From the sequence record PP047752: 64,000 nt of DNA, one strand, 5' to 3'. Each line of letters starts with the position of its first letter. Position 1 is the first letter of the stretch. The position numbers and the translations under genes were made by a program. A model generated the notes under the pieces. It was not told the origin of the DNA. It searched no databases and was given only the letters and a program-made list of their open reading frames with translations. Below, one piece after another: positions 27,383 through 58,691 of the stretch. The DNA is from Escherichia phage KEP2.

Positions 27383-27613
27383 ATGTTTAACAAAAGTAAA
27401 GCTGTGAGTCATGTAGCAAAGGTTGACAGCAAGACTGAAGAACTTGAGCGCATTCTTGCAAATGCCAGAGAGTCAATAATTAAAGAAGTTGAAGCCGTTG
27501 AATCTCAAATGCAGCACCTAATGCTTAAACGTCAAGAGTTACGTGAGCATCTGGAATATATTGAAACACGAGAGCTAAAAGTTAACAGATTTTTAAGGAG
27601 TCCGAATGTTTAA
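27383..27613 (+). CDS. hypothetical coiled-coil protein
   Basis: ORF-track start is TTG; ATG at 27383. Confidence 0.3.
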   Translation: MFNKSKAVSHVAKVDSKTEELERILANARESIIKEVEAVESQMQHLMLKRQELREHLEYIETRELKVNRFLRSPNV

Positions 27614-28361
27614 CTCAAGAGAATCAGTAAAAAACTGGAATCTTCGTTGCGGAAACACCCAAAAGCAACCTTACAGTGATGAGTATTGGGAATCTTTGAA
27701 ATCCCAGTCTCTGTGTATGCTTGAAGAAGCGAAAGAGCTTGTAAAAGCAATTGAAGAGAAAGACCCCATTGAGACATTGGATGCTCAGGCAGATTTGCAA
27801 TATGTTCTTGATGGTCTAATTTATCTGTCACAACATGACCACAATGGTGCTATGGAAGCTGTTTGCCATAATAATGACCTGAAGTACACAGATGACTATG
27901 AAGAAGCTTTAAAACGTCTTGCAGATATTGAGAAGCGTACTAGTCAAGAGTGTATTATCAGAATGTCAGTGGTTGATGGTAAAGAGTGGTATGCGATTGT
28001 CCGTGCAGCAGATGGGAAGATTATGAAGCAATCAAATCTCCCTAAAGTACAGCTTGGTGAATACATTGTAGAGCTTGAAAGCCAAGAACTTTTTGTGGTA
28101 GTATCTGAGACATGCGTTATCTGCAAAGGTATTGTAGGTAGCTTAAAGGATTTGGGTGTAGATGGTTTTGTAGAAGTTAATCCAATTACCTCTAAAGCAG
28201 ATAAAGATTTCTGTAAAGAGAATGGACTATGGATTGCAGATATTGTCTACTACGATGGTGAGCAGTTCCATGTAACCTCATACCCGAAACTGAATTATGA
28301 TGCTAATAACCTGAAGTGCTGGTTAAAAGGGGTTGGTTATAATGGATTCACAGAACATTAA
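27606..28361 (+). CDS. hypothetical protein, possible MazG-like NTP pyrophosphatase domain
   Basis: LEEAKELVKAIEE...DAQADLQYVLDGLIYL resembles the EExxE...D..ELGD helix pair of MazG-type enzymes; weak. Confidence 0.3.
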   Translation: MFNSRESVKNWNLRCGNTQKQPYSDEYWESLKSQSLCMLEEAKELVKAIEEKDPIETLDAQADLQYVLDGLIYLSQHDHNGAMEAVCHNNDLKYTDDYEEALKRLADIEKRTSQECIIRMSVVDGKEWYAIVRAADGKIMKQSNLPKVQLGEYIVELESQELFVVVSETCVICKGIVGSLKDLGVDGFVEVNPITSKADKDFCKENGLWIADIVYYDGEQFHVTSYPKLNYDANNLKCWLKGVGYNGFTEH

Positions 28362-29045: not shown

Positions 29046-31280
29046 ATGATTAAGACAATTAAAAAATCAAACGGTACAGTAGTAAACTTTGACCCAGAAA
29101 GACTGAATAAGTGGGCATCATGGGCAGATAAGCGTGGTATTATCTGGTCAGAAGTCACTATGGAAGCCATGAAACGTGTCTATGAAGGTTGCACTACAAA
29201 AGAGATGCACCAAGCCATGATTGATGTTTGTGTTGATAAACAAACTCAAGAGTACTCAGATATGGCTGGACGGCTACTTCTAGGGATTATCTACAAAGAA
29301 GCCTTTGGAGGCTTTACTAAGGTTCCTACGCTGGTTACCTTCGTTAAAAATATGGAGAGAGCAGGACTTTGGGAGAAGATGGACTATTCTCAGGAAGAGC
29401 TTGAATACCTGCAAGGGTACATTGTGCACTCAAAAGATATCTCTTACGGTTATGCAGTCCTGAAACAGTTCAGAGATAAGTATGGTATCCGTGATATTAA
29501 AACGGGAAAACTTTTTGAGTCACCGCAGTTTATGTTTATGGGTATGGCTATGAAAGCCTTCGAGAAGCAACCAAAGCACCGTAGACTGCAAGATGTTATC
29601 AAGCTGTACACTTACCTATCTGACCTGAAGATTAATGCTCCTACACCTTATCTGAATGGTTTAAGAGCTACTAAATCAGGTTACGCGTCATGCTGTTTGA
29701 TTAAGGCAAATGATACTGCTGAATCACTTGGTATTGCTGCAAAGGTTGCTTATGATATGACTACAAAGCAAGCTGGTATTGGGATGCTGATGGAGACTCG
29801 TACTATTGGTGATGGTATCCGTCAAAATACTATTGAGCACATGGGTAAACTACCTTATTACAAGCTTGTACGTTCATCTGTAGAGGCAAACAAACAAAAG
29901 AGCCGTGGTGGTTCAGCTAACAACTTCTACACCGCTCTAGACCCGCAGATTGAAGATTTACTGCGTTTGAAGCACCCTACAACGGTTCCTTCGAAACGTA
30001 TTAACGAGATGGACTACTCATTTGGTACAAATGATTATTTCTGGCAGTGTGTTCAATATGATACAGACTGGTTGCTATTCTCTTACAAGGATGCACCAAA
30101 ACTCTATGACATGTTCTACACAGCATCTGCTGATGAGTTTGCTATGGCAGTTGGTCACGCAGTACATTCAGGTGTTAAGCACAGACGGGTGAAGGCTCGT
30201 GAAATTGCTAAACTGTTTATCCAGCAGCGTTATGCAACAGGCCGTGTGTACCCATTCTTCACGAATAATGCAAACACACATACACCATTTAAAGAGCCTT
30301 TGAAGATGTCAAATCTTTGTATGGAAATTGTGTTGCCAGTGTACGGCTTTGAGAAAGAGACAGACCTTTACAGAGATGATGCTGTGAAAGAGGATGGTGA
30401 GGTAGCTCTTTGCTTCCTAGCTAGTTTGGTTGCAGGGAGAATTTCAGAAGATGAATACGCTGACGTTGCTTATTATGCTCTTGCAATGGTTGACTCCGTT
30501 ATTGACCTTATGGATTATCCGTATCCGTCGATGCGTAACCATGTTCAGAAGCGTCGTTCTGTTGGTATTGGCCTTACAAATGTGGCTCATTACCTTGCAA
30601 AAAATTACGTGAACTACTCTTCAAGAGCAGGTAAGACGAAGCTTCATGAGCTTGCTGAAATGCACTCTTACTACTTGCACGAAGCTTCTTTAAGACTTGC
30701 TAAAGAACGTGGTGTGCCTGAGTATATGCAGTTCACTAAGTATCCTGAAGGTTGGGTTCCTCCGAAGACAGCTAACAGGAAGATTGATGAGAAGCATGAT
30801 GCAAAACTTCGTTATGATTGGGATGACTTAGCACAACGTATTAAAGAAAATGGTGGAATCCGTAACTCTGTATTAGAAGCTTACATGCCTAATGAGAGTT
30901 CTTCACTGGCAACTAATACGACAAACGGATTGTATCCAATTCGTGACTTTATTTTAACTAAAAAGTCTGCAACTGGTAACGTACTGTTTATTGTTCCAGA
31001 CTACGAAGAGTTGAAGTATGTCTATGAAATTGCTTGGGATATTGACACCTTTGACCTGATTGATTGCTATGCAATTGTTCAAAAGTTCACTGGTCAAGCT
31101 ATCTCTTCAGATTTCTATGTTGACTACGCAAAAGCTAAGAAGGTATCATTGGCTCAAGCTTTGAAGTACATGATTTATGCAAACTCAGTAGGTATGAAAA
31201 CCATGTACTACCTTAACAGTCGCATCGGTGTAGGTAAATCTGCACTGCAAGATGCTTATTGCGAGGGTTGTGGTGTTTAG
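29046..31280 (+). CDS. nrdA: ribonucleoside-diphosphate reductase large subunit
   Basis: 744 aa, class I RNR alpha; followed by NrdB. Confidence 0.8.
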   Translation: MIKTIKKSNGTVVNFDPERLNKWASWADKRGIIWSEVTMEAMKRVYEGCTTKEMHQAMIDVCVDKQTQEYSDMAGRLLLGIIYKEAFGGFTKVPTLVTFVKNMERAGLWEKMDYSQEELEYLQGYIVHSKDISYGYAVLKQFRDKYGIRDIKTGKLFESPQFMFMGMAMKAFEKQPKHRRLQDVIKLYTYLSDLKINAPTPYLNGLRATKSGYASCCLIKANDTAESLGIAAKVAYDMTTKQAGIGMLMETRTIGDGIRQNTIEHMGKLPYYKLVRSSVEANKQKSRGGSANNFYTALDPQIEDLLRLKHPTTVPSKRINEMDYSFGTNDYFWQCVQYDTDWLLFSYKDAPKLYDMFYTASADEFAMAVGHAVHSGVKHRRVKAREIAKLFIQQRYATGRVYPFFTNNANTHTPFKEPLKMSNLCMEIVLPVYGFEKETDLYRDDAVKEDGEVALCFLASLVAGRISEDEYADVAYYALAMVDSVIDLMDYPYPSMRNHVQKRRSVGIGLTNVAHYLAKNYVNYSSRAGKTKLHELAEMHSYYLHEASLRLAKERGVPEYMQFTKYPEGWVPPKTANRKIDEKHDAKLRYDWDDLAQRIKENGGIRNSVLEAYMPNESSSLATNTTNGLYPIRDFILTKKSATGNVLFIVPDYEELKYVYEIAWDIDTFDLIDCYAIVQKFTGQAISSDFYVDYAKAKKVSLAQALKYMIYANSVGMKTMYYLNSRIGVGKSALQDAYCEGCGV

Positions 31281-31335: not shown

Positions 31336-31593
31336 ATGAAAGACCTAATAGAAAAACATGAGAGGCCAATATACTTATTCTACAAACCCCGCAAAACATT
31401 ATACTACGTGAGCAGCACAGGCATCATGATAAAGCAGAATGATGACTTATGGGTCACTGGAGCCTCTTACATCTCTACAGCAGATGGTAAAATCTACGCA
31501 AGACCTTATGAGATGTTCAATGAAGAAAATTGGGAAGTTTTAGACAGAAAACAAGCCTTAGAGATGATAAAGAAAGGAGAAATCACGCTATGA
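31336..31593 (+). CDS. small hypothetical protein inserted between nrdA and nrdB
   Basis: GGAGAAACT-ATG; preceded by hairpin GAGGGTCgtaaaaGACCCTC. Confidence 0.3.
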   Translation: MKDLIEKHERPIYLFYKPRKTLYYVSSTGIMIKQNDDLWVTGASYISTADGKIYARPYEMFNEENWEVLDRKQALEMIKKGEITL

Positions 31594-33152: not shown

Positions 33153-35297
33153 ATGAACAAAGTACAAATTATTAAAAAGAATGGCTCACTTGAAGAACCG
33201 GATATCAAAAAAGTTTTAGCAGCAGTAACTAAGTCAGCTAACAGAGTTGGGTATAAAGAACTTCCACCAGATGTTACCCAAGCTCTTGAGTCAGCATTTA
33301 TGAGGATTCTAGTAAAGTCCACTAAGCAGAATAACTTACTTATCTCGGTAAATGATATCCACAGTATCGTTGAAGGTGCTTTGGCAGAAGTCAATCACGA
33401 GATTTATGAGTCTTACTCAACATACAGAAATTACCGTAAAGAGGTTGCTCAAAATTGGGATGAGCTTTACCAAAAGACCAGAGACACACTCTTCTTAGGT
33501 GACCGTGAAAATGCTAACTTTGACAGTAGTTTAATTTCTACAAAAGGTTCAATTATTCGTGGTTATCTGACTAAAGAAATCTTTAAACAGTACCATTTAA
33601 CACCAGAGGAACTTGAATCCATTGAAAAAGGGTTTATCTATATCCACGATTTAAGAGACCTGATTTTTTGTGGTATTAACTGTTGCTTGTTTGACATTGG
33701 TAAAGTACTGGAAGGTGGCTTTGAAATGTCTGGCATCGAATACTGTGAACCAAAGTCTGTACTGTCAGCCTTACAAGTTATCGGTGATGTAGTTCTTTCA
33801 GCAACTGCACAGCAATTTGGTGGATTTACTTTAGCAGAGATTGACAAGGTGCTTGTACCGTATGCTAAGAAGTCTCTACGCTATCATGCTGAGAAAGCAG
33901 CATCTTACGGTATTCCTAAAGAACATTACCATAACTATGTCATGGAGCAGCTACAGATTGAATTAACTCAAGGCTTCCAGTCACTAGAGATGAAACTAAA
34001 TACTGTACCTTGCAGCCGTGGTGATTTTGCATTCACAACTTTAACATTTGGTTTACTTGACTCAGATATGTCTAATGAAGACAACCGGCTACAATACATG
34101 ATTGCAAACACCATTCTTGATGTTCGCATGAATGGACAAGGTAAGAGTAAGAAGCCTGTTGTATTCCCTAAACTGGTTTATATTCATGACCAGAAGAGAC
34201 ACGATGAGAATATCTGTCAAGGCCAACTGTACAGTAAAGCTATTGAGTGTTGCTCTAAAGCAATGTATCCAGATTTCTTAAGCGTATCTGGTCATGGTGC
34301 TGTAGCAGAGGCTTTTGAGCGTTCTGGCAAGGTAATTTCACCGATGGGTTGCAGAGCTTTCTTATCCCCATATCTTAACGAGAATGGAGAAGAGTTCTAC
34401 GTTGGACGTGCTAACATTGGTGCTGTATCTTTGAACTTGCCAATGATTTACCAGTATTCTAAAGAGAATGGTTTAGATTTCTGGAAAGAGCTTGATAAGT
34501 ACCTAGAGATGATTCGCAGCTTCCACAAGAAACGCTACGAAATGATTGCTAATATGCCAGCAAGTTCTAACCCTCTTGCATTCACACAAGGTGGTCTGTA
34601 CAAAGGGACTAAGAAACCTACTGACAAGGTTGGTTGGGATATCGTGAAGTCCTTCACAGCTTCTTTTGGGGTTACTGCGCTTGATGAGCTGTCTGTTCTT
34701 GCTGAAGGTAAACGACTCCATGAAGTTGGAAGCTACAGTTTTGCATACGATGTTCTGGCATACATTAACATGAAAACTGAAGAGTTTAAGAATGAAGATG
34801 GCTTCTTATATGCTGTCTATGGTACTCCAGCAGAATCACTTTGCGGAACTCAGCTAAAACAGTTCAGAGATATGTTTGGCGTTATCAAAGGTGTTTCTGA
34901 TAAGGAATACTTTACAAACAGTTTCCATATGAATGTTGCAGCAGACATCTCACCATTTGAGAAGCAGGACTTAGAAGAGCCATTCTTCCATATCTGTAGA
35001 GGTGGTAGAATCCAGTATGTCAGAGTAGCTAACCCAGAAAACTTACCAGCACTTAAAAGTTGTATTACCAGAGGGATGTTGAAGGGTTTTTATCAGGGAC
35101 TTAACTTTGACTTAGCAATCTGTGAGCATTGCGGTAACAGACCAAAGGCTGATGTTGAAGAATGTGAGGTTTGCCATTCACATGATATCTCTGTGATTAA
35201 CAGGGTGTGTGGTTATCTTGGATGGACTAAGATTAAAGGTGAATCCCGAATGAACGATGCAAAAATCGCTGAGATTCGTGACAGGATTTCTATGTAA
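33153..35297 (+). CDS. nrdD: anaerobic ribonucleoside-triphosphate reductase
   Basis: C-terminal glycyl-radical motif RVCGYLG and CEHCG...CEVCHS zinc ribbon; 714 aa. Confidence 0.8.
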   Translation: MNKVQIIKKNGSLEEPDIKKVLAAVTKSANRVGYKELPPDVTQALESAFMRILVKSTKQNNLLISVNDIHSIVEGALAEVNHEIYESYSTYRNYRKEVAQNWDELYQKTRDTLFLGDRENANFDSSLISTKGSIIRGYLTKEIFKQYHLTPEELESIEKGFIYIHDLRDLIFCGINCCLFDIGKVLEGGFEMSGIEYCEPKSVLSALQVIGDVVLSATAQQFGGFTLAEIDKVLVPYAKKSLRYHAEKAASYGIPKEHYHNYVMEQLQIELTQGFQSLEMKLNTVPCSRGDFAFTTLTFGLLDSDMSNEDNRLQYMIANTILDVRMNGQGKSKKPVVFPKLVYIHDQKRHDENICQGQLYSKAIECCSKAMYPDFLSVSGHGAVAEAFERSGKVISPMGCRAFLSPYLNENGEEFYVGRANIGAVSLNLPMIYQYSKENGLDFWKELDKYLEMIRSFHKKRYEMIANMPASSNPLAFTQGGLYKGTKKPTDKVGWDIVKSFTASFGVTALDELSVLAEGKRLHEVGSYSFAYDVLAYINMKTEEFKNEDGFLYAVYGTPAESLCGTQLKQFRDMFGVIKGVSDKEYFTNSFHMNVAADISPFEKQDLEEPFFHICRGGRIQYVRVANPENLPALKSCITRGMLKGFYQGLNFDLAICEHCGNRPKADVEECEVCHSHDISVINRVCGYLGWTKIKGESRMNDAKIAEIRDRISM

Positions 35298-36595: not shown

Positions 36596-37081
36596 ATGAA
36601 TTACATGGAGATTCGACCATTTGACACAGCTAATGGTGAAGGGGTTCGTGTAAGCCTCTTCGTAGCTGGCTGTAAACATCACTGTGAAGGCTGCTTTAAC
36701 AGGGAGTCTTGGAAGTTTAATGCTGGTAAAGAGTTTACTTATGCAAACCTCTACGGCATCATTAAGTTAATGGATGATAATGCTATCAGTGGGCTGTCAA
36801 TACTTGGTGGGGAGCCTCTGGATGACAGAAACATTCAAGAGGTCACTAACATATGCAAGCGTATTAAAACTGTTTATCCAGAAAAGTCTATATGGCTTTG
36901 GACAGGTTTTCAACTGCACGAAAAAATCCACCTAGATGTGATGAAATATGTTGACGTGGTGATTGATGGTAAGTATGATTCATCTAAACCAACAGTTAAA
37001 CCATATCGTGGTTCTGATAACCAAAACCTCTGGAGAAAAGAGTATGGGTGGCAAGGCGATTGTCAATGGCGAGCAGAATGA
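36596..37081 (+). CDS. nrdG: anaerobic RNR activating enzyme (radical SAM)
   Basis: CKHHCEGC = CxxxCxxC radical-SAM cluster motif near N-terminus; ~160 aa. Confidence 0.7.
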   Translation: MNYMEIRPFDTANGEGVRVSLFVAGCKHHCEGCFNRESWKFNAGKEFTYANLYGIIKLMDDNAISGLSILGGEPLDDRNIQEVTNICKRIKTVYPEKSIWLWTGFQLHEKIHLDVMKYVDVVIDGKYDSSKPTVKPYRGSDNQNLWRKEYGWQGDCQWRAE

Positions 37082-37934: not shown

Positions 37935-37966
37935 TAAGGGGACTGTAAAGGTTCCCTTTTTATTTT
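37935..37966 (+). terminator. intrinsic terminator
   Basis: AAGGGGAC-tgtaaag-GTTCCCTT followed by TTTATTTT. Confidence 0.5.
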
Positions 37967-37975
37967 GGAGATAAA

Positions 37976-38491
37976 ATGTATCTGTCAAACCTGAAACGTT
38001 CGGCTGCAATGTCAGTTCTAAGACTCAGCTTTGAGGAACGTCAAGAGTTCATTGACTCCCACCAATACGACCCTTCTAACTCAAATCACATGATTCTCTG
38101 GAATCGTGAGAGTACTCGTGAAAGAGCACTATTCCGCTATTATCCACACTACACTATAGATAACCTGTATGAATGTTTTGTTGTGAAGAACACCATTACA
38201 GTTCTCAATAAACTTTGCAGATACACAGGTAGTCAATCCTTCACATTAGGTCACCACAAGCCTGTTACAAAAGGTGGTGAACATCACTGCGCAAACTGGT
38301 TTATCCAAACTAAAGCTGATAACCAGAAGCAAGGAGATAGCCTTCTAAGCACTCCTAAGATGACCTATGAAGAGCAAGAGAGATATATCAAAAATAATAT
38401 GCCAGATGTGCTTGACAACAACTATACAGATTTGGCAATATCTCTCCTGTTGAAGTTTGAGACAGTTTATAGGGCAACTTACAATGGCTAA
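37976..38491 (+). CDS. HNH endonuclease-like protein
   Basis: LGHHKPVTKGGEHHCANW...N resembles HNH core (HH...GG...N). Confidence 0.5.
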   Translation: MYLSNLKRSAAMSVLRLSFEERQEFIDSHQYDPSNSNHMILWNRESTRERALFRYYPHYTIDNLYECFVVKNTITVLNKLCRYTGSQSFTLGHHKPVTKGGEHHCANWFIQTKADNQKQGDSLLSTPKMTYEEQERYIKNNMPDVLDNNYTDLAISLLLKFETVYRATYNG

Positions 38492-38762
38492 AGAGAAGTG
38501 GGAGATTCTACCATTAGTGAGTGAAGGTGGTAACGGCTGTGAGATGTACATGATACGTGGTCATGTCCCAGAACCAATTGCACTTGAGATGGTAAACAAT
38601 TTTACAGATGGCTCTTACAAAGATTTAGGAGAGCCAACTATAAAGCATCAATGGGTCAAACCTGTACCAGACAGCACAGGTAACTGTAGTGTACTTTATC
38701 ACGTTGTAGACCCTGCAAAATGCAAATCTGCAATGGCAGTAACAAACATAACCTTTGATTGA
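38457..38762 (+). CDS. hypothetical protein
   Basis: 101-aa ORF. Confidence 0.3.
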   Translation: MRQFIGQLTMAKEKWEILPLVSEGGNGCEMYMIRGHVPEPIALEMVNNFTDGSYKDLGEPTIKHQWVKPVPDSTGNCSVLYHVVDPAKCKSAMAVTNITFD

Positions 38763-38775
38763 GAGAGAGAAAACT

Positions 38776-39657
38776 ATGAAAACTGTTATTGAAGTCGTTG
38801 TCACCGCACAAGAGAAATTCTTCCACACAGAAAAATTTAATATCATCCAATTCCCATCTGGAGAAATTGGTGGAAACTTCTCTGAAGATTTTGTTAAGTT
38901 TACTGAGCGTAATGCTGGTAAGATTGACAATGTTATACTTACTGTGCAGGGATATGATAAAGATACACTGTTTGCATTAGCTTTGGCTAAGGATGCCATT
39001 GACAGCCTTGTTCCATATAAATCAGCGATGAAAACCGTTGTTTTCGGGTTCTTACCGAATGCTCGATATGACCGCCATATGTTCAAAGGCGATTCAGCAG
39101 CACTAAAAGCTTTTGCCAACCTCGTTAATGCAATGGGCTTTGATGCAGTATGTGCTCTTGACCCTCACAGTAATGTTGCAGAAAACTTATTTAAGTGCTT
39201 CCAAAGCATGAAGCAAAAAGATGTGGCAGTACACTTTGCAAGTGACCCACGCATTGATTTCTTGGTAGCCCCAGATGCAGGTGCAGCTAAGAAGACTGAA
39301 GAGACTGCTAAAGAGGTGGATAAACCATACATCACAATGTCTAAAGTACGTAACCTTAAGACTGGTGAAATTACTGGTATGCGAATCCTTGATGATGTTG
39401 ATTTGACCGATAAAACTGTCATGATTCTCGATGATATCTGTGATGGTGGTCGAACCTTCATAGAAGCAGCTAAACATCTTCGTGAAGCAGGTGCAAAACG
39501 TGTGGAACTCTATGTAACTCATGGCATTTTCTCTAAAGGTGTTGAAAACTTACTTGACAATGGTATTGACCATATCTACACTACAAACTCTTTAGGGGAA
39601 GCTAAAGACCGTGGCTTAACACATTATGCCCAAGTTACTGTAATTACCATTGATTGA
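38776..39657 (+). CDS. ribose-phosphate pyrophosphokinase (Prs) family protein; possibly ADPR-pyrophosphate synthetase
   Basis: Prs motifs: FPSGE, LPNARYDR, PRPP-binding loop MILDDICDGGRT, VTHGIFS; ORF-track start TTG re-called to ATG 38776. Confidence 0.75.
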   Translation: MKTVIEVVVTAQEKFFHTEKFNIIQFPSGEIGGNFSEDFVKFTERNAGKIDNVILTVQGYDKDTLFALALAKDAIDSLVPYKSAMKTVVFGFLPNARYDRHMFKGDSAALKAFANLVNAMGFDAVCALDPHSNVAENLFKCFQSMKQKDVAVHFASDPRIDFLVAPDAGAAKKTEETAKEVDKPYITMSKVRNLKTGEITGMRILDDVDLTDKTVMILDDICDGGRTFIEAAKHLREAGAKRVELYVTHGIFSKGVENLLDNGIDHIYTTNSLGEAKDRGLTHYAQVTVITID

Positions 39658-39666
39658 AACTTTATA

Positions 39667-39688
39667 GGGGGCTTCAAAGCCCCATTTT
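39667..39688 (+). promoter_or_regulatory. GGGGGCTTcaaAGCCCC stem-loop between Prs-like and NadV-like genes
   Basis: Same hairpin family as small-gene cassettes; interrupted T-run (ATTTTG), so attenuator or processing site rather than strong terminator. Confidence 0.35.
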
Positions 39689-39704
39689 GAGAGAGATTAA
39701 AAAG

Positions 39705-41486
39705 ATGACTAAATCACTTTATGCAGTACCAGCAGGTTTAAACGCGGATGCTTACAAATCTGGCCATATTTATCAGTATCCTAGTGCAACAGAGTACCTA
39801 ATGTTCAACCTGACACCACGTAGTGATAAATGGTTTAACAGCCCTTTAGCAATTGACGGTGTAGTTGCTTTTGGTATTCAACGTTTTGTTAAAGATTACC
39901 TGATAGACCACTGGAACGCCACCTTCTTCGAACGTGACAAAAAAGAAGCAATTGATGAAATCTTAGAAGTCATGAACGGCGTTCTGGGTAAAGATGCTAT
40001 TGGTCGAGAACATTGGGAAGCACTCCACGACTTAGGTTATCTACCAGTTGAAGTCTACGCTGTAGAAGAAGGTACAGTTGTCCCTATGCGTGTGCCAATG
40101 ATTGTCTTCCAGAACACTGTTTCAGGTTTCCATTGGGTAGCGGGGTATCTGGAAGATGCTTTCTCTGCTGAGATTTGGAAGGCTTGTACCATTGCAACTA
40201 TTGCATTGCACTACAAACGTATCTGTAAGAAGTGGGCTGACCTTACTTGTGACAACGACTTGCATTTACCTTATCAGTGCCATGACTTTGCTATGCGTGG
40301 TATGTCTGGCTTTACTGATGACGCATTTAACGCTGTAGGTCACTTAACCAGCTTTAAAGGAACTGACAGCTTCCCTGCTGTGTATACAGCTAAACGCATC
40401 TATGGACAGTCCTACCCAATCTCTGATATTGGTAGTTCTGTGCCAGCCACTGAACACTCTGTAATGTGTGCAAACATTGCTTGGGAAGGTGGTAATGAGT
40501 TAATTGAAGATGAAAGACGTTTTAAAGGTGAGTTACAAACCTTCCGTCGTTTCTTAACAGAAACTTACCCAACTGGTATTGCAAGTGTTGTTTCAGACAC
40601 TTATAACTTCTGGAGAACTGTATCAGTCATATTACCAGAACTCCGTAAAGAGATTATGGAACGTAATGGCAAACTAGTAATTCGTCCTGACTCTGGAGAC
40701 CCTGTACATATTGTCACAGGCTATAAAGCAATCCACTTAGAGTGTGCTAAAAAGGCTTATTACGAACACCTAAGCAAGCTGGAAGCCAGCGACACAATGT
40801 TGAATGCTGTTCTGAACATGAAGCTTGAAAACATCAATTATGGTATTGCTGGATGGCTATTGTCAGAAGGCTACGAAATAGTTGTTGACAGAGAAGACTT
40901 TGAAGTTGCTGATACAGTGCTGTTGAAAAATGCTTATATGGTTGGTTCTGCAAACGTTGTAACACGTCCTGTAGCGGAGATTGATGGAGCTATCAAGACA
41001 CTGTATAACATCTTTGGAGGAACTATCAACGCTAAAGGTTTTAAAGTACTGGATGAGCATATCGGACTTATTTATGGTGACTCTATCACGTTGGAACGTG
41101 CAAACGAAATACTGAAGCGTTTGTATGAAATGGGTTTTGCAAGCTCTAACGTAGTGTTTGGTGTAGGTTCTTATACTTACCAGTACATGACTCGTGACAC
41201 CTTTGCATTTGCTGTCAAAGCAACTCTTGCAAGCATTGGTGGTAAAGAGATTATGCTTGCAAAAGACCCTAAAACAGATAGCGGTGTTAAGAAGTCTGCT
41301 TTTGGTGGTGTAGCGCCCATGTGGGATGGTGATAAGCTGAAAGCTGTAGATGGCTATGGATTCCAGAGCTTTGCAGATGTGCTTGAACATCCAGCTTGTG
41401 CTTTACGTTTAGTCTTTAGTGACTCTGAGCAGTTCGGTTACACAACTCTTGGCGATATTCGAAATAATATTGACAAGCAGCTTTAA
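39705..41486 (+). CDS. nadV: nicotinamide phosphoribosyltransferase (NadV/NAMPT) family protein
   Basis: N-terminal ...NADAYKSGH... and overall size/pattern of NAMPT family; ATG with AGAGAGATTAAAAAG leader. Confidence 0.7.
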   Translation: MTKSLYAVPAGLNADAYKSGHIYQYPSATEYLMFNLTPRSDKWFNSPLAIDGVVAFGIQRFVKDYLIDHWNATFFERDKKEAIDEILEVMNGVLGKDAIGREHWEALHDLGYLPVEVYAVEEGTVVPMRVPMIVFQNTVSGFHWVAGYLEDAFSAEIWKACTIATIALHYKRICKKWADLTCDNDLHLPYQCHDFAMRGMSGFTDDAFNAVGHLTSFKGTDSFPAVYTAKRIYGQSYPISDIGSSVPATEHSVMCANIAWEGGNELIEDERRFKGELQTFRRFLTETYPTGIASVVSDTYNFWRTVSVILPELRKEIMERNGKLVIRPDSGDPVHIVTGYKAIHLECAKKAYYEHLSKLEASDTMLNAVLNMKLENINYGIAGWLLSEGYEIVVDREDFEVADTVLLKNAYMVGSANVVTRPVAEIDGAIKTLYNIFGGTINAKGFKVLDEHIGLIYGDSITLERANEILKRLYEMGFASSNVVFGVGSYTYQYMTRDTFAFAVKATLASIGGKEIMLAKDPKTDSGVKKSAFGGVAPMWDGDKLKAVDGYGFQSFADVLEHPACALRLVFSDSEQFGYTTLGDIRNNIDKQL

Positions 41487-41500
41487 AAGTATATGATAAG

Positions 41501-41525
41501 AGGCTCCTACGGGAGCCTTTTTAAT
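41501..41525 (+). terminator. intrinsic terminator
   Basis: AGGCTCC-tacg-GGAGCCT followed by TTTTTAATTT. Confidence 0.55.
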
Positions 41526-41539
41526 TTCTGGAGAAGATT

Positions 41540-41875
41540 ATGAAAATCAAAGAAATGAACATCAACATTGTCTTAGAAGAACGCTGGGAGAACATCAAGA
41601 AGCCTGAAAATGGTCATAAGTTCCTCAACAAAATCTTAGTAGCAGCTAAAGAAGAGCTGACTGGCAAGGTTGCAGCAGCAATCACAATAAAGGTGTGTGT
41701 AAAGGGTCTTCCAGACAATCACCAATTTGCACTTGACGAGTTTAAAGAAAGCTTCTACAATCCAAACAAACAGATGCTTGAAAGTAACTTTGCAGTGTCT
41801 ACAAGTATCGTCCATGACAGAAGCTTTATCCTTTACAAGAATATGAGAGGTGAGTCATGCAAGCATATTGGATAG
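41540..41875 (+). CDS. hypothetical protein
   Basis: 111-aa ORF. Confidence 0.3.
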   Translation: MKIKEMNINIVLEERWENIKKPENGHKFLNKILVAAKEELTGKVAAAITIKVCVKGLPDNHQFALDEFKESFYNPNKQMLESNFAVSTSIVHDRSFILYKNMRGESCKHIG

Positions 41876-42033
41876 AAATTTTACTGTCACTTGGTAGTGT
41901 AGCAGTGCTTGTTTACCTTCTTTGTAAGTACTTTGCAGAGAACAAAAAATGTGAATACTGCAACGGAGAGGGGTACATAAGGGCAGGTTGTTGCCCTATG
42001 TGTGGTGGTTCTGGTAAAATGTTTAATAAGTGA
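41857..42033 (+). CDS. small membrane-anchored protein with DnaJ-type zinc-finger repeats (58 aa)
   Basis: N-terminal hydrophobic helix then CEYCNGEG and CPMCGGSG (CxxCxGxG x2); below ORF-track size cut-off. Confidence 0.35.
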   Translation: MQAYWIEILLSLGSVAVLVYLLCKYFAENKKCEYCNGEGYIRAGCCPMCGGSGKMFNK

Positions 42034-49692: not shown

Positions 49693-50478
49693 ATGGGTAT
49701 TGTAAAAATCATCAATGGGGATATCTTCTCCGCATTTGATAAAGGTAAGTTTGATATCATTGGTCACGGTTGCAACTGTATGAACTTAATGGGTGCAGGT
49801 ATCGCTGATAAGATTTCTAAACTTTACCCAAAAGCATATGAGACCGATACAGAAGTTTATCTGTATGCAGGTGGTATAGGCCACAAACCCTGTGAAAATT
49901 TACTAGGCAATTTCTCTGTAGCACGTTTAGAACAAGGCCGTATAGCTAACCTTTACACTCAGCTTAAGACTGGTAAAGATGCCCGATATAGTGCTTTAGA
50001 GTCATCTTTGAAACAGCTTAACAGATACTGTGAAGTCAATCAGTTGAAGAAAGTTGGGTTACCTATGATTGGTGCAGGTATCGGTGGACTAGACTCTCAA
50101 GCCGTCACAGTCATCATTAATCAGGTGATGAAGAGTGTAGATGTGTATCTGTATGTCTATGAAGGAGAGATGTACCACAAGTTACGCTCAGGTTGGAAGA
50201 ACTACTGTGAACCAGAATACTTTGCAGGTGTAGTAGTATTCACTAATGATGCAGTTACCCTCTTCAGACGAAGAAAAGGCAAGATACATCAAAGTAACCC
50301 TCCGGTTGAAAAGATGTCTCTAAGTAACGCTCTAGTTACCCACCTGTCGAAGAGCAATCACAGAATTGCAGTAACATTTGGCAGTGATGCAGATACATAT
50401 ATCTATGCAAGAACTGATGAGGATGTTGAGGAAATTTTCTCTTCACCGGAAGTAACCTTCTTAGACGCAAAGAACTAA
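49693..50478 (+). CDS. macro-domain-like protein (ADP-ribose binding/processing)
   Basis: NGDIF...DIIGHGCNCMNLMGAGIADKI ... VGLPMIGAGIGGLD parallels macro-domain GDIT...IVNAAN..GGGV ... FP.IS.G.YG pattern. Confidence 0.5.
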   Translation: MGIVKIINGDIFSAFDKGKFDIIGHGCNCMNLMGAGIADKISKLYPKAYETDTEVYLYAGGIGHKPCENLLGNFSVARLEQGRIANLYTQLKTGKDARYSALESSLKQLNRYCEVNQLKKVGLPMIGAGIGGLDSQAVTVIINQVMKSVDVYLYVYEGEMYHKLRSGWKNYCEPEYFAGVVVFTNDAVTLFRRRKGKIHQSNPPVEKMSLSNALVTHLSKSNHRIAVTFGSDADTYIYARTDEDVEEIFSSPEVTFLDAKN

Positions 50479-56961: not shown

Positions 56962-56998
56962 TCGGCGCAACGGGGCAAATAGCCCCAGATACCTTTAT

Positions 56999-57021
56999 AG
57001 CCCCTTAAATGGGGCTTTTTT
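56999..57021 (+). terminator. intrinsic terminator ending the small-gene array
   Basis: AGCCCC-ttaaat-GGGGCT followed by TTTTT; preceded by degenerate cassette-like hairpin GGGGCaaatAGCCCCAGATACC. Confidence 0.55.
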
Positions 57022-57374
57022 ACGTCTTATCAAATCCTATACAATCCTTTTCCTTTCCTTTCCAGAGTCTTACTAGACCTTAAAAGCAATAACTCTATAG
57101 CTTACTCTATAACCTTTTATCAAATCAACTTAAATATAAGCCCATAACCCGAAAGGGAAGGGCAACCGTTTAAACGCTCTATAAAGCTCTATAACAGCCT
57201 TATCAACCTAACTTAAGGGATTGCATTAACTCACCCTTAAAAGCCCTTTATAAAGCTTCCTAGAGCCTTAAAAGAATCTTATAAGGGTGTAAGCTTTATT
57301 ATCTCGTTAGTATCTTGTGAACTACTAAAAAGGGGCTTGTTAGTTACTAAAAAGTATGTTATAGGGGCTATAAA

Positions 57375-57516
57375 GTTACGTAAAAGTAGCTTAAAAGTTA
57401 CGTAAAAGTAGCTTAAAAGTTACGTAAAAGTAGCTTAAAAGTTACGTAAAAGTAGCTTAAAAGTTACGTAAAAGTAGCTTAAAAGTTACGTAAAAGTAGC
57501 TTAAAAGTTACGTAAA
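57375..57516. repeat. 22-bp direct tandem repeat GTTACGTAAAAGTAGCTTAAAA x6 plus partial
   Basis: Six perfect units 57375-57506 and a 10-bp partial; each unit has palindromes TTACGTAA and AGCT. Confidence 0.9.
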
Positions 57517-57573
57517 TGCTAGCCCCCTTAACATTTTCTTAACAATCCCTACATAGTTATGCTTTTAAGGCAC

Positions 57574-58110
57574 TTGTTAGCAACTTGTTAAATCTCTGTT
57601 AAAACCATGTAAAAGCCTTGTAAGAGTCTTTGGCATAGCCTTTAAAGCCCCTGAAAAGCCTTATAAAGAGGTGTCTACATAGTTGGGGTGCAATTACTAG
57701 GGAGAGACTAAAAAGAGCTTATAAGGAGTTATAAAGAGCTTTTAAAAGGGCTATTTAAAAGGTCACTAAGAGGGAAAGGGAACGATAAGAAAAGAGATAG
57801 TGACCATGTTAATAGCTTGTTAAAAAGGTTAAACACTTGTTAGGAACTTGTTAATTATCTTAACAAAATAACTCTTTAAAATTAACTTGTTAGCTCTTGT
57901 TAGTCATCTGTTAAGCCTCTGTAAAGACTATGTATCAACTGTTAAGAAACTGTTACCCTCTTGTTAAAACTGTTAAGAATCTGTTAAGACCTTTGAAGAG
58001 ATGTTAAGAAGATGTATCAACTGTTAAGAGATTGTTAATGATATTTTAAAATTCTGCAAAGGGGATGTTACAGGGATGTTAAGGGCTACCAAGCAGATAT
58101 ACATCTTCTA
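57574..58110. repeat. dense cluster of short direct motifs (C/T)TGTTAA(G/A), more than 20 copies
   Basis: e.g. ACTTGTTAGCAACTTGTTAAATCTCTGTTAAAACC; ATGTATCAACTGTTAAGA occurs twice (~57925 and ~58008); non-coding. Confidence 0.7.
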
Positions 58111-58538
58111 CAGATATTTTTGAGTTCCTTCAAAGACCCTAAAAAATGACTTGACAACTCTATTTTATAAAAATTTTAAAATTCTGAATAATTACCTATA
58201 CAGTCTTTTAAAAATACAGGCATAAACAGGCTTATAAGATACCTTGTTAGTACCGTGTTAGACCTTGTGAGATAAGGTCTTTAAAGATATTCCTGTTAAG
58301 TTTGTTAAAACAGTCTATATAGAGGCTTAGTAATACCTAGTGAACACCTATAGAGGGTAACATAGCTGACATAGAGATTAAGAGGTGTATAGGGGCTTCT
58401 AAGAGGGTGTAGAGGAATGGTTAAGGTGATTGTATAGGTTGTTAAGAAGGCTTGTTAGAGGGCTATTTAGAAGGGCTATACAGAGGGACTATTAAGACCA
58501 CTAGATAGATACTAAGATACTATATAGTACTATATAAC

Positions 58539-58556
58539 TATATATATATATATATA
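58539..58556. repeat. (TA)9 dinucleotide repeat within AT-rich TACTATATA-type sequence
   Basis: TATATATATATATATATA; candidate DNA-unwinding element. Confidence 0.7.
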
Positions 58557-58658
58557 GAGAGTAAGCTTAAGAAGGTTGTTAAGAAGGATAGATATTTTAT
58601 TCACATATGATGGTGACCCAGAGGTTGGGACAACCGATGAAATTTTATAAAAAAATTA

Positions 58659-58691
58659 AAAAGCCCCCAATTAAGGAGGCTCTTAAGATAT
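58659..58691 (-). terminator. intrinsic terminator for the - strand block
   Basis: On - strand: AGCCUCC-uuaauu-GGGGGCU followed by UUUUUAAUUUUUUU. Confidence 0.5.

What the first reader, a model, noticed from the sequence alone, without database searches (positions are those of the whole stretch)
38776..41486. Prs-like and NadV-like gene pair without a partner NMNAT: candidate NARP1-type NAD+ reconstitution module
A Prs-family protein (PRPP-binding loop MILDDICDGGRT) is directly followed by a NAMPT/NadV-family protein, with only a GGGGGCTT hairpin between them. Canonical salvage via PRPP and NAMPT yields NMN and needs an NMN adenylyltransferase, which I do not see in this window. The recently described phage NARP1 pathway uses exactly a Prs homolog (ADPR-pyrophosphate synthetase) and a NAMPT homolog (nicotinamide ADPR transferase) to rebuild NAD+ from ADP-ribose and nicotinamide, countering NAD+-depleting defences. 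Prs versus Adps cannot be told apart by eye.
Basis: partly seen in the sequence, partly recalled or inferred. Interest (0 to 1): 0.75.

Follow-up and report, generated by a model that had tools for sequence, protein, structure and literature searches.

The report
Known phage NAD+ rebuilding operon (NARP1)

Summary
A 293-aa Prs-family gene (38776..39657) and a 593-aa NAMPT-family gene (39705..41486) lie on the + strand, separated by 47 nt that hold a conserved GGGGCT/AGCCCC hairpin.

The window is a Felixounavirus genome. The two proteins are 96% and 98% identical, without gaps, to bas63_0079 and bas63_0080 of Escherichia phage JohannRWettstein (Bas63). NARP1 (Adps plus Namat) was discovered in that operon. 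Published work on it includes the deletion phenotype, ADPR-PP detection, and independence from host pncC and nadR.

The NAMPT-like protein carries the published Namat signature (GSYTYQYMTRD, K42-W43 loop). It keeps nearly all NAD+-contacting residues of the crystallised SpβL1 Namat, which is its best sequence and fold match in the PDB.

The Prs-like protein belongs to a family with DDICDGGxTF in place of the Prs DDMIDTGGT loop. No NMNAT or Nudix domain was found in the window or in the rest of the Bas63 genome.

Verdict: the NARP1 interpretation is supported, and the novelty is "already known".

Two side findings are minor and unpublished as far as I could check. Namat carries an ~85-aa inserted subdomain of unknown fold. 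An Adpp-family macro-domain gene lies 8.2 kb downstream, which may make this a split NARP1-AP.

The parts
37936..37958 (+). Terminator-like hairpin upstream. It is the likely 5' limit of the transcription unit that also holds two small genes of unknown function (37976..38491 and 38484..38762).
   Evidence: Terminator scan. The same site is annotated as a rho-independent terminator in AYO145A. The two small ORFs match PHROGs of unknown function; the first has a weak HNH hit.
38776..39657 (+). adps: ADP-ribose pyrophosphate synthetase, a Prs-family enzyme of 293 aa. Catalytic K190 and R192; altered ribose-5-phosphate loop DDICDGGRTF at residues 219-228.
   Evidence: 96% identical (281/293, no gaps) to bas63_0079. 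Pfam and NCBIfam hits. Family motifs across 150 representatives. 27% identical to E. coli Prs. dN/dS against Bas63 is 0.07.
39668..39688 (+). Intergenic hairpin GGGGCT-TCAA-AGCCCC plus ATTTT. It may act as a weak terminator, attenuator or RNA-stabilising element between adps and namat.
   Evidence: Sequence; fold of -15.1 kcal/mol with z = -2.4; conserved in Bas63 and AYO145A; annotated as a terminator in AYO145A; not called by the scan.
39705..41486 (+). namat: nicotinamide ADP-ribose transferase, a NAMPT-family enzyme of 593 aa. SCH signature GSYTYQYMTRD at residues 488-498; SCL K42-W43; catalytic R327, D221, F195 and H251.
   Evidence: 98% identical (579/593) to bas63_0080. Best PDB sequence hit is the SpβL1 Namat 9W5W/9W5X at E 1e-127, against 1e-40 for human NAMPT. 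Residue mapping. AF2 model pLDDT 92.7, best fold match 9W5X with TMt 0.95. dN/dS 0.04.
40725..40985 (+). Inserted α/β subdomain of Namat, residues about 341-427. It is absent from the SpβL1 Namat, HdNadV and human NAMPT. Its function is unknown.
41498..41521 (+). Strong terminator-like hairpin 12 nt after the namat stop codon, marking the 3' end of the unit. A promoter-like site for the next genes overlaps at 41470..41497.
   Evidence: 10-bp stem, then TTTTTAATTT, and TTGACA-16-TATGAT matching 11 of 12 positions. A promoter is annotated at the same place in AYO145A.
49693..50478 (+). Macro-domain protein (261 aa; corresponds to bas63_0095, 'putative phosphatase') of the same family as the NARP1-associated ADPR-1''-phosphate phosphatase Adpp. 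It is a candidate accessory that is not linked to the operon and is unproven.
   Evidence: Pfam Macro at E 2e-7. Same PHROG 335 as the operon-embedded macro of Vibrio phage VF16. 27% identical to the characterised Gary Adpp; 30% identical (E 4e-22) to the NARP1-associated macro of phage JG004.

Best explanation
The pair is a NARP1 operon of a Felixounavirus. NAD+-depleting defence systems (SIR2-HerA, Thoeris, DSR1/2, SEFIR and others) cleave NAD+ into ADP-ribose and nicotinamide. The first enzyme, Adps, uses ATP to transfer pyrophosphate onto the ribose C1'' of ADP-ribose, giving ADPR-PP. The second enzyme, Namat, then displaces that pyrophosphate with nicotinamide to regenerate NAD+ directly. 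No NMN intermediate is formed and no NMN adenylyltransferase is needed.

Shown here: orthology to the Bas63 operon, conservation of the catalytic and specificity residues, absence of an NMNAT, and purifying selection.

Taken from the literature: the chemistry, which was measured on the SpβL1 homologues, and the in vivo phenotype and ADPR-PP detection, which were measured on Bas63.

Inferred: that this isolate's proteins, 96-98% identical to those of Bas63, do the same.
For: The window is a Felixounavirus: 257 phage records match, the best at 98%.

Adps is 281/293 identical and Namat 579/593 identical to bas63_0079 and bas63_0080, with no gaps.

The published work on Bas63 shows the following (10.1101/2024.02.11.579819). 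Deleting genes 79-80 sensitises the phage to SIR2-HerA about 20-fold. NAD+ is partly restored during infection by wild-type phage. ADPR-PP (m/z 720.010) appears only with wild-type phage plus the defence system. The effect persists in a ΔpncC ΔnadR host.

The SpβL1 homologues convert ADPR and ATP to ADPR-PP, and ADPR-PP and nicotinamide to NAD+. They prefer ADPR-PP over PRPP.

The Namat signature GSXΦXΦXΦTRD and the SCL stacking residue (PMC12774641) are present as GSYTYQYMTRD and K42-W43. Of 19 mapped NAD+-contact residues of the SpβL1 Namat, 15 are identical and four carry substitutions (R40 to K42, with the adjacent W43 stacking as described for Bas63; S to A; A to S; F to Y).

The best PDB matches by sequence and by fold are Namat 9W5W/9W5X, ahead of true NAMPTs.

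In the Adps family, K190 and R192 are invariant in 150 of 150 representatives, and the loop reads DDICDGGxTF.

A fused Adps-Namat PHROG profile (phrog_12872) is hit by both proteins.

No NMNAT or Nudix domain was found.

dN/dS against Bas63 is 0.07 for Adps and 0.04 for Namat.
Against: No enzymology exists for the Felixounavirus proteins themselves. Bas63 Adps did not purify well, so the chemistry was shown only on SpβL1 homologues, which are about 46% identical for Namat.

Namat can also make NMN from PRPP in vitro, so some classical salvage flux cannot be excluded.

Adps passes the NCBIfam subfamily cut-off for ribose-phosphate diphosphokinase, so sequence family alone does not exclude use of ribose-5-phosphate.

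The Felixounavirus Namat has an ~85-aa insertion whose effect on activity is unknown.
Confidence: 0.93

Rival explanations
1. Classical salvage. The first enzyme is a true PRPP synthetase and the second a true NAMPT/NadV. Together they make NMN, which host NadR or PncC plus NadD/NadE convert to NAD+.
For: Pfam and NCBIfam names. All GenBank annotations call the genes ribose-phosphate pyrophosphokinase and nicotinamide phosphoribosyltransferase. Namat can make NMN from PRPP in vitro.
Against: Bas63 still overcomes SIR2-HerA in a ΔpncC ΔnadR host, and ADPR-PP accumulates. No product was detected when SpβL1 Adps was offered the Prs substrate (ribose-5-phosphate per the Fig. 2D legend; the text says PRPP). 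The Prs 5-phosphate loop DTGGT is replaced by DGGRT. The Namat adenine clamp is present. All NCBIfam Prs equivalog cut-offs are missed by a wide margin.
Confidence: 0.03
2. Nucleotide-supply role. The pair sits at the end of the phage nucleotide-metabolism block (NrdA/B, NrdD/G, glutaredoxin) and mainly boosts PRPP or NAD+ for DNA synthesis, independent of host immunity.
For: Gene neighbourhood: NrdA at 29046, NrdB at 31530, NrdD at 33153 and NrdG at 36596 lie upstream on the same strand.
Against: In Bas63, ADPR-PP appeared only when the defence system was present. No plating defect of the deletion mutant on cells without the system was described in the text read (the figure itself was not seen). 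The substrate ADPR is itself a product of NAD+ cleavage.
Confidence: 0.03
3. Extended, split NARP1-AP. Besides Adps and Namat, the macro-domain protein at 49693..50478 dephosphorylates ADPR-1''-phosphate, the product of aRES/RES NAD+ phosphorylases, to ADPR. This would let the phage rebuild NAD+ after non-canonical cleavage as well. The reading adds to the best explanation rather than replacing it.
For: The macro N-domain aligns end to end with NARP1-operon macro proteins. It is 27% identical to the characterised Gary Adpp and 30% identical (E 4e-22) to the JG004 neighbour. It falls in the same PHROG 335 and shares the motifs HxxNC, MGxGIA and GLPxIGxG. The published screen looked only within two genes of NARP1, and its table lists no Escherichia or Salmonella phage.
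Against: The gene is 8.2 kb and about 19 genes away from namat. Homologues of equal or higher similarity (about 34%) occur in T4-like phages, a group not reported to carry NARP1, though this was not checked record by record. The family therefore seems to have NARP1-independent roles. The conserved Cys of IGCG is Ala here. There is an extra C-terminal domain of about 100 aa. The residues that were mutated in Adpp are not given in the text I could read.
Confidence: 0.3

Closest known systems
NARP1 of Escherichia phage JohannRWettstein (Bas63), genes bas63_0079 and bas63_0080 (Osterman et al., bioRxiv 10.1101/2024.02.11.579819)
   Same: Same genus (Felixounavirus), same gene order, same lengths (293 and 593 aa), the same 45-47 nt spacer with the same hairpin, 96% and 98% protein identity, and the same flanking genes.
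   Different: Only 12 and 14 amino-acid substitutions and about 6-7% nucleotide divergence. This is a different isolate; its closest records are vB_EcoM-LTH02 and AYO145A.
NARP1 of Bacillus phage SpβL1, the biochemically and structurally characterised Adps and Namat (PDB 9W5W and 9W5X; PMC12774641)
   Same: Two-gene operon. Namat catalytic core and adenine selectivity clamp are conserved. Fold TM-score normalised to the target is 0.95.
   Different: Namat is only about 46% identical over 483 aligned positions. The SpβL1 Namat lacks the ~85-aa insertion (residues 341-427) and the ~18-aa insertion after the catalytic His. Its SCL uses R40, where this protein has K42-W43.
NARP1-AP of Vibrio phage Gary and VF16: Adps, Adpp (macro phosphatase) and Namat (bioRxiv 10.64898/2026.01.28.702374)
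   Same: Adps and Namat homologues are present, and a macro-domain protein of the same PHROG is encoded in the genome.
   Different: Here the macro gene is not in the operon but 8.2 kb downstream, and it has an extra C-terminal domain. Its activity is unknown.
NARP2 of Vibrio phage KVP40: NadV (NAMPT) plus NatV (NMNAT/Nudix)
   Same: A NAMPT-family enzyme used by a phage to restore NAD+.
   Different: NARP2 needs an NMNAT and uses PRPP. No NMNAT or Nudix domain is encoded here, and the partner gene is a Prs-family Adps.
Bacterial class I PRPP synthetase (E. coli Prs)
   Same: Same fold family. The catalytic Lys/Arg pair (K194 and R196 in E. coli, K190 and R192 here) and the DD of the PRPP loop are conserved.
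   Different: 27% identity. The loop reads DGGRTF where Prs has DTGGTL, DPHS where Prs has DLHA, and P94 where Prs has Gly. The substrate is ADP-ribose rather than ribose-5-phosphate (literature).

Membership tests
NARP1 (Adps + Namat) | A Prs-family protein of the Adps clade, separate from cellular Prs | tested here: met
   96% identical to Bas63 Adps. 554 representative clusters score E <= 1e-30; the best 150 score E <= 6e-36 and share the motifs DDICDGGxTF, DPHS and PxAR. Only 27% identical to E. coli Prs. No formal tree was built.
NARP1 (Adps + Namat) | A NAMPT-family gene immediately next to adps on the same strand | tested here: met
   47-nt spacer, same strand. A fused Adps-Namat PHROG profile is hit by both proteins.
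NARP1 (Adps + Namat) | [quoted passage not shown] | tested here: met
   G488-S-Y490-T-Y-Q-Y494-M-T-R-D498. Φ3 is Met rather than the usual Asn or Val.
NARP1 (Adps + Namat) | Namat selectivity-clamp loop with an Arg, or a Lys/Tyr followed by a stacking residue | tested here: met
   K42-W43, identical to Bas63, for which the paper describes the fourth residue as the stacking one.
NARP1 (Adps + Namat) | Catalytic residues that were mutated in the published work: Adps K162 and Namat R306 (SpβL1 numbering) | tested here: met
   Namat R327 aligns with R306. Adps K190 aligns with E. coli K194 and the Sulfolobus Prs Lys, and is invariant in 150 of 150 family representatives. Equivalence to SpβL1 K162 is inferred through Prs numbering.
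NARP1 (Adps + Namat) | Adps pyrophosphorylates ADPR and not ribose-5-phosphate; Namat prefers ADPR-PP over PRPP | not testable with these tools
   Shown in vitro for the SpβL1 proteins, with ADPR-PP detected in Bas63-infected cells.
NARP1 (Adps + Namat) | Counteracts NAD+-depleting defence systems | not testable with these tools
   Shown for Bas63 Δ79-80 on SIR2-HerA. The window proteins are 96-98% identical.
NARP2 (NAMPT + NMNAT) | An NMN adenylyltransferase encoded by the phage | tested here: not met
   No CTP_transf_like or Nudix Pfam hit in the window ORFs of at least 100 aa, nor in the Bas63 regions outside the window.
Class I PRPP synthetase (true Prs) | Ribose-5-phosphate (5-phosphate) binding loop D-T-G/A-G-T, and scores above the Prs equivalog cut-offs | tested here: not met
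   The loop is DGGRT. All NCBIfam Prs equivalog and subfamily models except TIGR01251 fall far below their cut-offs, for example 110 against 296 bits. The Pfam N-terminal Prs domain is not detected.
NARP1-AP (Adps + Adpp + Namat) | A macro-domain ADPR-1''-phosphate phosphatase associated with the NARP1 operon (within two genes in the published definition) | tested here: not met
   No macro gene lies within two genes of the pair. A homologue of the Adpp family lies 8.2 kb downstream. Whether it serves NARP1 is undetermined.

The most novel reading that the evidence does not exclude
Felixounaviruses may run a split NARP1-AP. The unlinked macro-domain protein (49693..50478; bas63_0095) would be an Adpp-type ADPR-1''-phosphate phosphatase that feeds Adps, making these phages resistant to aRES/RES NAD+ phosphorylases. 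The published screen, which looked only within two genes of NARP1, would have missed this. Separately, the conserved ~85-aa subdomain inserted in the Ounavirinae Namat, which has no known fold relative, may add a function that the crystallised SpβL1 enzyme lacks, such as regulation, Adps docking or substrate channelling.
Probability: 0.3. Interest if true: 0.45.

Novelty: already known. Interest (0 to 1): 0.15.

Why it matters
NARP1 is an important recent discovery: phages rebuild a metabolite that host immunity destroys. This locus, however, adds only another isolate of the very phage genus in which the pathway was found, and about 250 Felixounavirus records carry the same operon.

Its practical value is for annotation. 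Public records still name these genes PRPP synthetase and nicotinamide phosphoribosyltransferase. The motifs listed here could help relabel them: DDICDGGxTF, DPHS and PxARxDR for Adps, and GSYTYQYxTRD for Namat.

Two side observations give cheap, testable extensions of the published work. One is the distal Adpp-family macro gene. The other is the uncharacterised subdomain inserted in Namat.

Tried and rejected
(1) I looked for an NMNAT by Pfam scanning of concatenated translations of the window ORFs of at least 100 aa, of 10 of the 12 large genes set aside from that scan, and of Bas63 genes outside the window. None was found. ORFs shorter than 100 aa were not scanned because they are too short for an NMNAT domain.

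(3) I tested whether the intergenic hairpin is a strong intrinsic terminator. The scan did not call it, its T-run is only 4 nt, and its folding z-score is -2.4. I leave it as a weak or possible attenuator.

(4) I considered the classical Prs plus NadV salvage pathway. I rejected it on the published Bas63 genetics (ΔpncC ΔnadR host) and on the motif differences.

(5) Rfam (gathering thresholds) and a tRNA scan of the whole window found nothing.

(6) I searched the literature for an Adps structure. None exists: the PDB has no close hit, and the NAR 2026 paper states it is unresolved.

(7) I checked the supplement of the aRES preprint for Felixounavirus or Bas63 entries among NARP1-AP phages. There are none.

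(8) My first guesses for the Bas63 accession number were wrong. MZ501086 is the correct one.
Full report
**Observation.** The ORF list shows two consecutive + strand genes. The first has its ATG at 38776 and its stop at 39657, giving 293 aa, and contains VMILDDICDGGRTF. The second has its ATG at 39705 and its stop at 41486, giving 593 aa. Pfam assigns Pribosyltran and Pribosyl_synth to the first and NAPRTase and NAMPT_N to the second. NCBIfam gives TIGR01251 (ribose-phosphate diphosphokinase subfamily, 133.5 bits, cut-off 113) and NF006629 (467 bits, cut-off 405). All Prs equivalog models are missed by a wide margin.

The 47-nt spacer contains GGGGCT-TCAA-AGCCCC followed by ATTTTG at 39668..39688. 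It is conserved in Bas63 and AYO145A, with one loop change in Bas63, and it is annotated as a terminator in AYO145A. The consensus scan does not call it.

**What the window is.** Megablast of 38000..42000 finds 257 phage records, almost all Felixounavirus phages of Escherichia, Salmonella, Shigella or Citrobacter. The best match is 98% identical. The gene order in the window runs through tail and baseplate genes, thymidylate synthase, DHFR, ligase, DNA polymerase, primase-helicase, NrdA/B, NrdD/G, the pair, rIIA/B, and on to the endolysin. This matches the annotated genome of Escherichia phage JohannRWettstein (Bas63, MZ501086).

**Identity with the founding NARP1 operon.** Bas63 genes bas63_0079 (293 aa) and bas63_0080 (593 aa) are 96% (281/293) and 98% (579/593) identical to the window proteins, without gaps. 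Osterman et al. (bioRxiv 10.1101/2024.02.11.579819) discovered NARP1 in exactly this Bas63 operon.
- Deleting genes 79-80 made the phage about 20-fold more sensitive to SIR2-HerA.
- NAD+ was partly preserved only during infection by wild-type phage.
- The effect did not need host pncC or nadR.
- ADPR-PP (m/z 720.010) appeared only with wild-type phage plus the defence system.

The chemistry itself was measured on the homologous SpβL1 proteins, because Bas63 Adps purified poorly. Adps converts ATP and ADPR to ADPR-PP. Namat converts ADPR-PP and nicotinamide to NAD+ and prefers ADPR-PP over PRPP. The authors found NARP1 in 859 of about 20,000 phage genomes, and 97% of Adps-clade genes lie next to a Namat.

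**Independent checks of family membership.** The best PDB sequence hits of the 593-aa protein are 9W5W and 9W5X (E 1e-127). These are the SpβL1 Namat structures. They rank ahead of H. ducreyi NadV, Xanthomonas Nampt (4e-51) and human NAMPT (about 1e-40).

An AlphaFold2 model built from 28 homologues (pLDDT 92.7) has 9W5X as its best fold match, with a TM-score of 0.95 normalised to the target.

I mapped 19 NAD+-contact residues of the SpβL1 Namat (PMC12774641) onto the window protein. Fifteen are identical and four are substituted: S190 to A196, A362 to S460, F392 to Y490, and the clamp-loop R40 to K42 (with W43 next to it). The mapped residues are:
- D15 and Y17
- F195 and R198
- D221 and A248
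- R327 and D329
- G458, D459 and S460
- the Namat-specific clamp helix G488-S-Y-T-Y-Q-Y-M-T-R-D498
- the clamp loop K42-W43, which is the Lys-plus-next-residue arrangement described for Bas63

H251 is the conserved catalytic His.

For Adps, phmmer against 1.84 billion representatives found 554 clusters at E <= 1e-30. In an alignment of the best 150 with E. coli Prs and VF16 Adps, several features stand out.
- K190 and R192 are invariant. They correspond to E. coli K194 and R196, and to the catalytic pair K197 and R199 of B. subtilis Prs, as I recall from the literature and.
- The 5-phosphate loop reads DDICDGG[R/G/A]TF, where Prs has DDMIDTGGTL.
- DPHS replaces DLHA.
- P94 replaces Gly.

Identity to E. 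coli Prs is 27%. Adps can therefore be distinguished from Prs by motifs, although I compared against only one bona fide Prs and my recollection of the class I consensus.

A PHROG profile of 547 columns (phrog_12872) is matched in its first half by Adps and in its second half by Namat. This points to natural Adps-Namat fusions. dN/dS against Bas63 is 0.07 for Adps and 0.04 for Namat, so both genes are under strong purifying selection.

**No NMNAT.** Pfam scans gave no CTP_transf_like or Nudix hit. The scans covered 57 window ORFs of at least 100 aa, sent as four concatenated sequences, and 10 of the 12 large genes set aside from that scan; the remaining two are the pair itself, scanned. The roughly 23 kb of the genome outside the window holds structural genes, tRNAs and DUF proteins in Bas63. 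This excludes a KVP40-type NARP2.

**Mechanism.** The best-supported reading (confidence 0.93) is the published NARP1 mechanism. The orthology and residue conservation are shown here. The chemistry and phenotype come from the cited papers. Their transfer to this isolate is an inference across 96-98% identity.

The classical Prs plus NadV salvage reading is contradicted by the ΔpncC ΔnadR result, by ADPR-PP accumulation and by the motif differences. A small side flux through PRPP to NMN cannot be excluded, because Namat retains that activity in vitro.

**Transcription context.** Terminator-like hairpins at 37936..37958 and 41498..41521 (both annotated in AYO145A) bracket a unit of four genes. 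Two are small ORFs of unknown function (37976..38491, with a weak HNH hit, and 38484..38762). The other two are adps and namat. The hairpin between adps and namat may modulate the ratio of the two products. This is speculation.

**Side observations.**

(b) ORF 49693..50478 (261 aa; corresponds to bas63_0095, 'putative phosphatase') has an N-terminal macro domain. A 2026 preprint (10.64898/2026.01.28.702374) shows that 15% of NARP1 operons include a macro-domain ADPR-1''-phosphate phosphatase, Adpp. This extended pathway is called NARP1-AP, and it lets the pathway overcome the aRES NAD+ phosphorylase. That screen looked only within two genes of NARP1, and its table lists no Escherichia or Salmonella phage.

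The window's macro domain aligns end to end with those proteins. It is 27% identical to the characterised Gary Adpp and 30% identical (E 4e-22) to the JG004 neighbour. It falls in the same PHROG 335 as the operon-embedded VF16 protein. However, equally similar homologues occur in T4-like phages, a group not reported to carry NARP1 (I did not check those records for it). The gene is 8.2 kb away, and it has an extra C-terminal domain. I rate a split NARP1-AP at about 0.3.

(c) A 1.7-kb ORF-poor region at 56970..58690 contains a perfect 22-bp tandem repeat of 6.6 copies.

**Verdict.** The feature is the already published NARP1 operon in another Felixounavirus isolate, so novelty is 'already known' and overall interest is low (0.15).

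Noticed in passing
[not shown]
   Followed up: partly
window 49693..50478 (+): A 261-aa macro-domain protein (corresponds to bas63_0095, 'putative phosphatase') belongs to the same PHROG as the NARP1-associated ADPR-1''-phosphate phosphatase Adpp. It is 27-30% identical to Adpp proteins over the whole domain. It lies 8.2 kb downstream of namat and has an extra C-terminal domain of about 100 aa. It may be an unlinked NARP1-AP component that the published screen (within two genes of NARP1) missed. Homologues also occur in T4-like phages, which are not reported to carry NARP1 (not checked here).
   Followed up: partly
window 56970..58690: A 1.7-kb region with almost no ORFs lies between the + strand and - strand gene blocks. 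The equivalent stretch of Bas63 is also unannotated. It contains a perfect tandem repeat of 22 bp in 6.6 copies (AAAGTTACGTAAAAGTAGCTTA, 57372..57516) and several degenerate 10-13-bp repeats. It could be an origin or regulatory region. No Rfam or tRNA hit.
   Followed up: no
window 38776..39657 compared with other Felixounavirus records: Adps occurs in two allele groups among Felixounaviruses. About 50 records are at least 95% identical to the window protein and about 200 are only 78-82% identical. The DNA of the whole 4-kb region is 90-95% identical in most records. This suggests faster divergence or allele exchange at adps.
   Followed up: no
window 38776..41486 (PHROG hits): phrog_12872, a 547-column profile labelled nicotinamide phosphoribosyl transferase, is matched in its first half by Adps and in its second half by Namat. 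Some phages therefore seem to encode a fused Adps-Namat protein.
   Followed up: no
window 37976..38762: Two small genes of unknown function (171 aa with a weak HNH-endonuclease hit, and 92 aa) lie between the upstream terminator-like hairpin (37936..37958) and adps. They may be co-transcribed with NARP1.
   Followed up: partly
window 27606..28361 (+): A 251-aa ORF has a weak MazG-like PRA-PH (nucleotide pyrophosphohydrolase) Pfam hit at E 2e-4.
   Followed up: no
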